Source: a virus. Taken from it: a stretch of 64,000 nucleotides of DNA. The notes under the pieces were generated by a model, which saw only the letters and a list, made by a program, of their open reading frames with translations, did not search any database and was not told the origin of the DNA. A program made the position numbers and the translations under genes. Below, piece after piece: positions 37,396 through 37,472 of the stretch. Each line of letters starts with the position of its first letter. Position 1 is the stretch's first letter. The stretch is taken from IMG/VR virus record IMGVR_UViG_3300025671_000038, one strand, 5' to 3'.

Positions 37396-37472
37396 TAGGC
37401 ACGGCGGGGATTGAACCCACATGTAACCAATTACTCTTTCTACAAGGTATAAGCTTGAGGAGATACGTGCCC
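37396..37472 (-). tRNA. non-canonical tRNA-like gene, UAU anticodon loop, no D arm at the usual position
   Basis: GGGCACG/CGTGCCT acceptor, CAAG-CTTATAC-CTTG arm, then GTAA-TTGG-TTAC hairpin, then GTGGG-TTCAATC-CCCGC. Confidence 0.75.

What the first reader, a model, noticed from the sequence alone, without database searches (positions are those of the whole stretch)
37396..37472. tRNA-like gene with rearranged arms and a UAU anticodon
Seen: intact acceptor stem (GGGCACG/CGTGCCT, A73) and T arm, but no D hairpin at 10-25. After U8 A9 comes TCTC, then an anticodon-type arm CAAG-CTTATAC-CTTG (C32 U33 UAU A37), then a D-loop-like hairpin GTAA-TTGG-TTAC where the variable arm should be. Established: most bacteria read AUA with lysidine-modified tRNA-Ile2(CAU) and TilS; UAU anticodons are rare. 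Seen: a CAU Ile2-like tRNA is the next gene, and ATA codons occur in phage ORFs (two in the 59-aa RHH gene). Inference: either a TilS-independent AUA decoder with permuted architecture, or a decoy/substrate for the Ro-like RNP whose CAGCAA element lies 10 nt upstream.
Basis: partly seen in the sequence, partly recalled or inferred. Interest (0 to 1): 0.82.

Follow-up and report, generated by a model that had tools for sequence, protein, structure and literature searches.

The report
Phage isoleucine tRNA with rewired core
This 77-base phage gene is very probably a working isoleucine tRNA for the AUA codon; it has every standard tRNA part, but the D-arm pieces are joined in a different order, a layout shared by well over a hundred phage sequences, missed by tRNA finders, and absent from the papers I could search.

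Summary
Window 37472-37396 (minus strand) has a 7-bp acceptor stem, discriminator A, a normal T arm and a UAU anticodon arm, but no D hairpin. ARAGORN and Rfam do not call it.

It is not a decayed gene. The same scaffold occurs in more than 120 IMG/VR contigs, in cultured Streptomyces and crAss-like phages, and in only 19 metagenome-bin contigs among 185,579 species genomes.

Across 81-100 distinct copies:
- The acceptor, anticodon and T stems covary.
- A further helix, 11-13 with 37-39, also covaries.
- The anticodon is always UAU, GAU or CAU.
- U33 and A37 are invariant; A73 is in 99 of 100.

Positions 37-49 read as a standard D-stem strand plus D-loop (A14, R15, G18 G19, A21) placed after the anticodon arm. 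Moving that block back in silico makes ARAGORN of 80 copies a tRNA (79 Ile, one CAU).

A sister family carries Arg anticodons. It always has A at the D-loop position that ArgRS is known to read, and it often encodes CCA.

The phage uses ATA for 49.5% of its Ile codons.

This scan reached the same reading on other phage DNA before. Expression, charging and decoding are untested.

The parts
37396..37472 (-). Whole gene: rewired tRNA-Ile(UAU), 77 nt. RNA position i corresponds to window coordinate 37473 minus i.
   Evidence: Sequence. Family model R1 scores it 99.7 bits, E 5.7e-24. It is 76/77 identical to the copy in sister phage L001.
37466..37472 (-). Acceptor stem 5' strand (positions 1-7). 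It pairs with 37397-37403.
   Evidence: All 7 pairs show changes on both sides across 81 copies.
37460..37463 (-). UCUC (positions 10-13). Positions 11-13 pair with 37-39. This strand takes the place of canonical D-stem strand 22-25.
   Evidence: Pair 11-39: CG 91, AU 5, UA 4. Pair 12-38: UA 51, CG 45, GC 2, UG 2. Pair 13-37: CG 99, GC 1.
37442..37458 (-). Anticodon arm (positions 15-31): 4 bp plus a U-U closing pair, loop C-U-UAU-A-C, anticodon at 37451-37449.
   Evidence: All 4 stem pairs covary. The anticodon is UAU 81, GAU 15, CAU 4 in 100 copies; U33 and A37 are invariant.
37437..37441 (-). AGAAA (positions 32-36), in the place of variable loop 44-48. GAAA is invariant.
   Evidence: Position tallies.
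37424..37436 (-). GAGUAAUUGGUUA (positions 37-49): the displaced block that matches canonical positions 10-21 (D-stem 5' strand plus a D-loop with A14, R15, G18 G19, A21).
   Evidence: A41, A42, G45, G46 are invariant and A49 is in 97 of 98 (these bases were fixed by the search patterns, and also hold in the BLAST-found cultured-phage copies). Moving this block to after position 9 makes ARAGORN of 80 copies a tRNA (79 Ile, one CAU labelled Met); deleting it gives 0 of 80.
37421..37423 (-). CAU linker (positions 50-52) between the displaced D-loop and the T stem.
   Evidence: C50 and A51 are invariant; U52 is in 94 of 98.
37404..37420 (-). T arm (positions 53-69): 5-bp stem with loop UUCAAUC.
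   Evidence: 4 of 5 pairs covary; the G-C pair closing the T-loop (RNA 57-65, the canonical G53-C61) is invariant.
37396..37403 (-). Acceptor 3' strand (37403-37397) and discriminator A (37396). The three bases after it are CCC, not CCA.
   Evidence: A73 in 99 of 100 copies. A C follows the discriminator in 109 of 110 contexts; CCA is encoded in 10.
37483..37537 (-). Context only: stem-plus-CAGCAA 'handle' RNA, 10 nt upstream. Not part of the tRNA.
   Evidence: Sequence. The closing stem covaries with the L001 copy. A handle is absent upstream of the family elsewhere.
37304..37378 (-). Context only: ordinary tRNA(CAU), the next gene downstream. Whether it is Met or Ile2 was not tested.
   Evidence: ARAGORN; Rfam 70.4 bits.
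37544..37993 (-). Context only: 149-aa HNH endonuclease ORF inserted between tRNA-Leu(UAG) and the handle. It is absent from sister phage L001.
   Evidence: Pfam HNH_3, E 6.8e-06. L001 layout.

Best explanation
This is a working phage elongator tRNA-Ile with anticodon UAU. It is transcribed within the phage tRNA/tmRNA array and cut out by RNase P and 3' processing enzymes. It is then completed with CCA, charged by the host IleRS and used to read AUA, the commonest Ile codon in this phage.

The chain is wired differently from the cloverleaf. The block equivalent to canonical positions 10-21 (D-stem 5' strand plus D-loop) lies after the variable-loop equivalent instead of after position 9. The gene order is 1-9, then 22-48, then 10-21, then a 3-nt linker, then 49-76.

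The D stem still forms (11-13 with 37-39) and stacks under the anticodon stem. The displaced D-loop can still supply A14, R15, G18 G19 and A21 to the elbow, so a normal L-shape is plausible.

Shown: the conserved family, the helices, the restriction to Ile anticodons, the block equivalence and the codon demand. Inferred: expression, L-shape, charging and decoding. Why the rewired form is kept is unknown.
For: 1. Family. The scaffold is in more than 120 IMG/VR contigs, in 40 Streptomyces phage records and 3 crAss-like or uncultured gut-phage records, and in only 19 MAG contigs among 185,579 species genomes.

2. Structure. All four helices covary. 98.1% of cells are paired against 76.4% after shuffling and 35-48% when partners are slid. 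Pair 11-39 is always compensated.

3. tRNA identity. With the anticodon hairpin left free in the search pattern, every copy carries UAU, GAU or CAU in a C-U-NAU-A-N loop. A73 is in 99 of 100 copies.

4. Block equivalence. Restoring the canonical order gives ARAGORN tRNA calls in 80 of 80 copies (79 Ile, one CAU labelled Met), against 0 of 80 as encoded, 0 of 80 with the block deleted and 36 of 80 with it shuffled.

5. Sister Arg family with the same wiring. It has ACG or UCG anticodons. The base after GG is A in 31 of 31, where the Ile type always has U. A20 is the established ArgRS identity base (from my own knowledge of E. coli tRNA-Arg identity). CCA follows the discriminator in 22 of 34.

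6. Selection. The copy is 76/77 identical to that of sister phage L001, whose neighbouring protein is 60% identical. The ordinary tRNAs of the array are 78-100% identical.

7. Demand. ATA is 49.5% of Ile codons, 35.7 per 1000 codons.

8. Feasibility. The E. coli synthetase, EF-Tu and ribosome accept a tRNA without a D arm with no adaptation (PMC11551756).
Against: - There are no expression, processing, aminoacylation or decoding data.
- E. coli IleRS charges a UAU-anticodon tRNA-Ile poorly, and unmodified UAU does not separate AUA from AUG on E. coli ribosomes (PMC3575796). Charging and fidelity therefore cannot be assumed, although this applies equally to the ordinary tRNA-Ile(UAU) genes common in phage arrays.
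- In 3 of 20 arrays a rewired UAU copy sits beside an ordinary tRNA-Ile(UAU), so it does not simply fill an empty slot. The slot-filling test was inconclusive.
- ATA usage is only weakly higher in UAU-type than in GAU-type phages (p about 0.06-0.09).
- The 10-52 core is almost invariant, more than a plain decoder needs, although the search patterns fixed part of it.
- ARAGORN is lenient: 36 of 80 copies are still called with a shuffled block.
- The L-shape is reasoned, not modelled.
Confidence: 0.7

Rival explanations
1. A tRNA-shaped RNA that is processed, and perhaps charged, but whose main job is not decoding. It could be a decoy or sponge for a tRNA-Ile-directed host nuclease or another tRNA-binding defence or regulatory factor. 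It could also be a nuclease-proof spare that matters only under attack.
For: The core 8-52 is nearly invariant. The element co-occurs with an ordinary tRNA-Ile of the same anticodon in 5 of 27 rewired-copy/array comparisons (UAU 3 of 20, GAU 2 of 7). The layout is confined to phages and to two isotypes, Ile and Arg, which suggests a conflict-driven feature.
Against: A decoy for an anticodon nuclease would not need A73, a covarying 7-bp acceptor stem, C74 or an encoded CCA. Nor would it need the isotype-specific D-loop base (A in Arg, U in Ile), which points to synthetase recognition. No associated nuclease or defence gene was identified.
Confidence: 0.15
2. Only a processing signal: a tRNA-like punctuation mark that recruits RNase P and RNase Z to release the upstream CAGCAA handle RNA and its neighbours, as mascRNA does for MALAT1.
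For: It sits 10 nt after the handle RNA in this phage and in L001. The acceptor and T arms, which are what RNase P needs, are intact.
Against: Punctuation would not constrain the anticodon to the Ile set, keep U33 and A37, or conserve the D-loop bases. In most contexts it follows an ordinary tRNA or an ORF, not a small RNA.
Confidence: 0.06
3. A partner, cargo or substrate of the phage's Ro60-like (DUF2828) protein, acting together with the CAGCAA handle as a YrlA-like tRNA-mimic module.
For: The handle lies 10 nt upstream. A relative's array lies about 5 kb downstream of its DUF2828 gene. Bacterial YrlA RNAs contain tRNA-like domains (PMC4201824, named in the scan notes; not read here).
Against: Only 2 of 81 distinct contexts (this phage and the L001 lineage) have a real handle upstream. 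L006 has the handle followed by an ordinary tRNA. The element lies outside the handle's closing stem. There is no Rfam YrlA match on the element.
Confidence: 0.04
4. A decayed or scrambled tRNA pseudogene, or a chance tRNA-like fold.
For: tRNA finders reject it. The single-sequence fold is unremarkable (z -1.49).
Against: There are hundreds of copies with compensatory changes in every helix. The copy is 98.7% identical to that of a sister phage whose spacers differ.
Confidence: 0.01

Closest known systems
Ordinary bacterial or phage elongator tRNA-Ile, including the UAU-anticodon tRNA-Ile2 of Mycoplasma mobile (PMC3575796) and the ordinary tRNA-Ile(UAU) in crAss-like phage L160:1735-1809
   Same: 7-bp acceptor stem, A73, 5-bp T stem with a T-loop, a 7-nt anticodon loop with U33, NAU and A37, D-stem pairs, and the D-loop bases A14, R15, G18 G19, A21. 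The presumed job is the same: reading AUA without lysidine.
   Different: The block 10-21 is encoded after the variable-loop equivalent, so there is no D hairpin and the secondary structure is not a cloverleaf. RF00005 and ARAGORN do not detect it.
D-arm-lacking mitochondrial tRNAs (for example mammalian mt tRNA-Ser(AGY)) and the synthetic D-arm-less 'mini HisT' used by E. coli (PMC11551756; review PMC7609411)
   Same: No D hairpin between position 9 and the anticodon arm. They show that translation can use non-cloverleaf tRNAs.
   Different: Those tRNAs have lost the D-arm nucleotides and fold into a Y or boomerang shape. Here the D stem and the D-loop signature are all present but re-threaded, and the setting is bacterial cytosolic translation. 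According to the 2024 paper, natural armless tRNAs occur only in mitochondria.
Circularly permuted tRNA genes of the red alga Cyanidioschyzon merolae (from my own knowledge; not checked here)
   Same: The gene order of tRNA parts differs from the mature cloverleaf order.
   Different: There the 3' half precedes the 5' half and processing restores an ordinary tRNA. Here the acceptor ends are in the normal place, an internal block is moved, and nothing suggests cutting and rejoining.
Allo-tRNAs and the 8/4 or 9/3 tRNAs of bacteria and phages (PMC5389517)
   Same: Unusual tRNA architectures found in metagenomes and phage tRNA clusters and missed by standard finders.
   Different: Those change the lengths of the acceptor and T stems but remain cloverleaves. 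This family keeps 7/5 and changes the connectivity of the core.
YrlA-type Y RNAs with a tRNA-like domain bound by Ro60/Rsr (Rfam RF02553; PMC4201824, not read here)
   Same: A tRNA-like acceptor/T module near a gene for a Ro60-like protein.
   Different: YrlA has no anticodon arm and carries a Ro-binding stem. This RNA has a full anticodon arm with Ile anticodons, gives no RF02553 match, and in other phages is not linked to the handle or to Ro-like genes.

Membership tests
tRNA, canonical cloverleaf (Rfam RF00005 / ARAGORN) | 7-bp acceptor stem with a single discriminator base | tested here: met
   7 pairs, all covarying. A73 is in 99 of 100 copies.
tRNA, canonical cloverleaf (Rfam RF00005 / ARAGORN) | T arm: 5-bp stem, 7-nt UUCRANY loop, G53-C61 | tested here: met
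tRNA, canonical cloverleaf (Rfam RF00005 / ARAGORN) | Anticodon arm with a 7-nt loop, U33 and a purine at 37 | tested here: met
   Loop C-U-NAU-A-N in 100 of 100 copies. The stem is 4 bp plus a U-U pair and covaries.
tRNA, canonical cloverleaf (Rfam RF00005 / ARAGORN) | D hairpin between position 9 and the anticodon arm (cloverleaf connectivity) | tested here: not met
   There is no hairpin there. The D-stem partner strand and the D-loop lie 3' of the anticodon arm.
tRNA, canonical cloverleaf (Rfam RF00005 / ARAGORN) | Detected by the family model at its threshold | tested here: not met
   No RF00005 match even at E<=10. ARAGORN of 80 as encoded, but 80 of 80 once the block is returned to the canonical place.
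tRNA-Ile isoacceptor | Anticodon of the Ile box (GAU, UAU, or CAU to be modified), with A35 and U36 | tested here: met
   UAU 81, GAU 15, CAU 4, and no other, with the hairpin left free in the search.
tRNA-Ile isoacceptor | Aminoacylation by IleRS and decoding of Ile codons | not testable with these tools
   Needs a charging assay or tRNA sequencing. Caveat from PMC3575796: E. coli IleRS charges the UAU anticodon poorly.
Mitochondrial-type D-armless tRNA | D-arm nucleotides absent and replaced by a short connector | tested here: not met
   D-stem pairs (11-13 with 37-39) and the A-A-N-N-G-G-U-Y-A D-loop signature are present.
YrlA / Y RNA (RF02553) | Ro-binding stem, with a tRNA-like domain lacking an anticodon arm; match to the family model | tested here: not met
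   No RF02553 match on the element at E<=10. A full anticodon arm is present.
Cargo of the CAGCAA-handle RNAs linked to DUF2828 | Consistent physical linkage to a handle | tested here: not met
   A handle lies upstream only in the window and the L001 lineage among 81 contexts. L006 has the handle without the element.

The most novel reading that the evidence does not exclude
Hundreds of phages encode working Ile and Arg tRNAs that are not cloverleaves. The chain threads the L-shape in a different order. These would be the first natural non-cloverleaf elongator tRNAs outside mitochondria, used by ordinary bacterial synthetases, EF-Tu and ribosomes. They may be kept because the re-threaded core escapes a host enzyme or defence that acts on the normal D-arm region.
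Probability: 0.6. Interest if true: 0.9.

Novelty: new variant of a known kind. Interest (0 to 1): 0.8.

Why it matters
[quoted passage not shown] If this family works in translation, several things follow:
- Bacterial synthetases, EF-Tu, RNase P, the CCA enzyme and the ribosome accept a tRNA whose core is threaded in another order.
- Phage tRNA inventories are undercounted. This gene is unannotated in 38 of the 40 Streptomyces phage records and labelled tRNA-Leu in the other two.
- Why only Ile and Arg tRNAs of phages took this route becomes a testable question. Cultured carriers exist: Streptomyces cluster BE phages and a Bacteroides crAss-like phage.

It would also give a natural template for engineered orthogonal tRNAs.

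Tried and rejected
**Searches that failed or found nothing**
- My first pattern scan had the wrong spacing (9 N instead of 8) and found nothing. The corrected scan is.
- No whole genome is held for this window.
- The neighbouring 388-aa protein has no relatives in IMG/VR. Relatives were reached through the protein database and its contigs instead.
- Four literature searches and two targeted readings found no description of this layout. This covers open-access papers only.

**Hypotheses tested and dropped**
- Pseudogene: rejected on covariation and conservation.
- Ro-RNP partner or handle cargo: rejected on distribution.
Its G39-C50 pair is broken whenever position 39 changes, while 11-39 is always compensated.
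- Link to HNH genes: in one lineage (acceptor CCGCGAG) the element directly follows an HNH-like ORF. This is lineage-specific, and here the HNH ORF is an insertion absent from L001.

**Tests that were inconclusive**
- Slot-filling. An ordinary tRNA-Ile(UAU) is present in 3 of 20 arrays that have a rewired UAU copy, against 9 of 38 without one.
- Anticodon against codon usage. Median ATA share is 0.30 in UAU-type phages and 0.22 in GAU-type, p 0.06-0.09, and the samples are not phylogenetically independent.
- A Levitt-like pair A42-U52. It is A-U in 94 of 98, but the 4 changes at position 52 are not compensated.

**Seen but not pursued**
- A second layout for tRNA-Ile(GAU): only three copies were found.

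Full report
**What is there.** On the minus strand, window 37472-37396 is a 77-nt sequence inside a phage array. In order, the array holds a tmRNA, then tRNA-Thr, Ser and Leu, then an HNH ORF and a stem-plus-CAGCAA 'handle' RNA. The element follows, and after it come tRNA(CAU), a 115-nt spacer, and tRNA(CAU), Asn, Gly, an odd tRNA and Leu.

The element's parts are as follows:
- a 7-bp acceptor stem (G1-U76 plus six Watson-Crick pairs) and discriminator A;
- a 5-bp T stem with loop UUCAAUC;
- U8 A9, then UCUC;
- a 4-bp hairpin with loop C-U-UAU-A-C;
- AGAAA, then GAGUAAUUGGUUA, then CAU.

ARAGORN does not call it. Rfam gives no tRNA match even at E<=10. Its single-sequence fold is unremarkable (z -1.49).

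**Relatives.** No whole genome is held for this window, and the phage has no close DNA relative among cultured phages. Through the neighbouring 388-aa protein I reached sister phages.
- L001/L002 (that protein is 60% identical) carry the same element in the same slot, with one base different. The upstream handle and the spacers differ strongly.
- The element is 98.7% identical between the two phages. The ordinary tRNAs of the array are 78-100% identical and the tmRNA 76%.
- In L006 (43% identical) the handle is followed directly by an ordinary tRNA(CAU).

**The family.** A second pattern that left the whole anticodon hairpin free hit 119. BLAST found the element in 40 Streptomyces phage records. 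It is unannotated in 38 of them and labelled tRNA-Leu in the two EGole records. BLAST also found it in three crAss-like or uncultured gut-phage records, one of them Kehishuvirus 'tikkala', which is grown on Bacteroides cellulosilyticus. A loose pattern over one genome for each of 185,579 prokaryote species found only 19 stretches, all on contigs of metagenome bins, several with dense tRNA arrays. The family is essentially viral.

**Structure from comparison.** In 81 distinct copies (alignment A1):
- 98.1% of pair cells form standard pairs, against 76.4% after shuffling and 35-48% when partners are slid by 1-3 columns;
- 18 of 22 pairs show changes on both sides;
- the acceptor stem (7 of 7 pairs), the anticodon stem (4 of 4) and the T stem (4 of 5) all covary.

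In 100 distinct copies pair 11-39 is CG 91, AU 5, UA 4. Pair 12-38 is UA 51, CG 45, GC 2, UG 2.

Its G39-C50 pair is broken in all nine copies where position 39 changes. U48-to-C occurs ten times without compensation. RNAalifold still draws the hairpin, on energy alone. One caveat: the search patterns fixed parts of the core, so its invariance is partly built in. The divergent copies that BLAST and the model found keep the same bases.

**What the layout is.** Positions 37-49 read G-R-G-U-A-A-N-N-G-G-U-Y-A. That is the signature of canonical positions 10-21: the D-stem 5' strand, then A14, R15, two variable bases, G18 G19, two pyrimidines and A21. Positions 10-36 are 27 nt long, exactly the canonical span 22-48: the D-stem 3' strand, position 26, the 5+7+5 anticodon arm and a 5-nt variable loop. 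The gene therefore holds every tRNA part in the order 1-9, 22-48, 10-21, a 3-nt linker, then 49-76.

I tested this by re-ordering the blocks in silico and running ARAGORN:

| Version | ARAGORN tRNA calls |
|---|---|
| As encoded | 0 of 80 |
| Block restored to canonical place | 80 of 80 (UAU 70, GAU 9, CAU 1) |
| Block deleted | 0 of 80 |
| Block shuffled | 36 of 80 |
| Block boundaries shifted by -3 or -4 | 0 of 80 |

ARAGORN is lenient, so this supports the equivalence but does not prove it.

From the known tRNA fold, I infer the following. The D stem can still stack under the anticodon stem, because both strands now run on continuously. U8, the A14 equivalent and the A21 equivalent can still meet. 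G45 and G46 can reach the T-loop. A normal L-shape is plausible, but I did not model it.

**Is it a tRNA in function?** Several findings point to charging and decoding.
- With the hairpin left free, all copies carry Ile anticodons only: UAU 81, GAU 15, CAU 4. U33 and A37 are invariant, and A73 is in 99 of 100.
- A C follows the discriminator in 109 of 110 otherwise unrelated contexts.
- The family model also picked up relatives with Arg anticodons. A dedicated scan gave 31 distinct copies with ACG or UCG.
- In all 31 Arg copies the base after GG is A, where the Ile type always has U. A20 is the main D-loop identity base for ArgRS in E. coli (established knowledge, recalled, not checked here).
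- 22 of 34 matches to that Arg-type scan, three of them not of the rewired type, encode CCA right after the discriminator.

Isotype-specific synthetase signals on a shared rewired frame are hard to explain unless these RNAs are charged.

This phage uses ATA for 49.5% of its Ile codons, 35.7 per 1000 codons, in ORFs of 200 aa or more. It therefore has a clear use for an AUA reader.

[quoted passage not shown] The barrier there was degradation by PNPase (PMC11551756).

**What speaks against, or is open.**
- Nothing here shows expression, charging or decoding.
- E. coli IleRS charges a UAU tRNA-Ile poorly, and unmodified UAU misreads AUG on E. coli ribosomes (PMC3575796). The same question hangs over the ordinary tRNA-Ile(UAU) genes that many phage arrays carry.
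- The element does not simply fill an empty Ile slot. An ordinary tRNA-Ile(UAU) accompanies a rewired UAU copy in 3 of 20 arrays, against 9 of 38 arrays without one. That difference is too small to read.
- ATA usage is only weakly higher in UAU-type than in GAU-type phages.
- Why the rewired form is kept, and why it occurs in Ile and Arg only, is unexplained. Escape from an enzyme that acts on the normal D-arm region is a guess.

**The Ro-like reading.** The handle really is 10 nt upstream, and its closing stem covaries with the L001 copy. Among 81 distinct contexts of the family, however, only this phage and L001 have such a handle. Elsewhere the element follows an ordinary tRNA (often Arg-UCU) or the stop codon of an ORF. 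L006 has the handle without the element, and the element gives no YrlA match. The neighbourhood here is most simply two independent RNA genes in one processed array.

**Known or new.** Four full-text searches and two targeted readings found no description of this layout. A 2020 review of non-canonical tRNAs does not mention phages. A 2024 paper states that all known bacterial tRNAs are cloverleaves. The library covers open-access papers only, so an earlier description elsewhere cannot be excluded.

This scan has met the same family on other phage DNA at least ten times and reached the same reading. I saw those notes after forming mine. They are not independent evidence.

**Verdict.** The gene is real and under selection. 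It is a member of a large, phage-only family of re-threaded tRNA-Ile genes. I put about 0.7 on it being a working AUA-reading tRNA.

Noticed in passing
L148:634-709, L128:2864-2942 and loci L182-L221 (positions): A sister family with the same rewired layout but Arg anticodons (ACG mostly, also UCG). There are 31 distinct copies, always with A after the GG pair. CCA is often encoded after a U or G discriminator (22 of the 34 matches to the Arg-type scan).
   Followed up: partly
L162:7210-7286, L168:4553-4629, L222:7183-7260: A second, rarer layout for tRNA-Ile(GAU). The anticodon arm directly follows an ACCG strand, then come a D-loop-like ACUNAGGUA segment, CGGU and UGAAAAC, so the GG and GAAA segments are in the opposite order from the main type. 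Only three copies were found, so covariation could not be tested. Two of them sit 100-300 nt upstream of a main-type UAU copy.
   Followed up: partly
window 37189-37303 (minus strand): A 115-nt spacer between the two tRNA(CAU) genes folds into a long closed stem (MFE -34.5 kcal/mol, z -2.5). In sister phage L001 the two tRNAs are only 9 nt apart, so it is absent there. It may be another small RNA gene.
   Followed up: partly
window 37544-37993 (minus strand): An HNH endonuclease ORF (149 aa) sits between tRNA-Leu(UAG) and the handle RNA. It is absent at this place in L001, so it looks like a mobile insertion in the array. In another phage lineage (acceptor CCGCGAG) the rewired tRNA directly follows the stop codon of an HNH-like ORF.
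   Followed up: partly
window 36265-36343 (minus strand) and L001:14794-14870: ARAGORN calls a tRNA with an abnormal anticodon loop ('anticodon aa'). It is 96% conserved between the two phages, so it is probably functional too.
   Followed up: no
L159:1496-1572 (Streptomyces phage EGole, MK494112.1 75265-75341): The family member here (GAU anticodon) is annotated as tRNA-Leu reading UUA. The same gene is unannotated in 38 other Streptomyces phage records, so the label is probably wrong.
   Followed up: partly
L143:5154-5230 and 5242-5318; L044:4396-4472 and 5795-5871; L139:9499-9575 and 10741-10817; L170:2617-2693 and 3550-3626: Some phages carry two rewired Ile genes, either as GAU+GAU tandem copies or as a mix of anticodons (GAU+UAU, CAU+GAU).
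   Followed up: no
window, ORFs of 200 aa or more: Arg codons are overwhelmingly AGA (294) and AGG (199), against 78 CGN in all. ATA is the top Ile codon. The phage's tRNA set (Arg-CCU, Ile-UAU, CAU) matches this A-rich usage.
   Followed up: no
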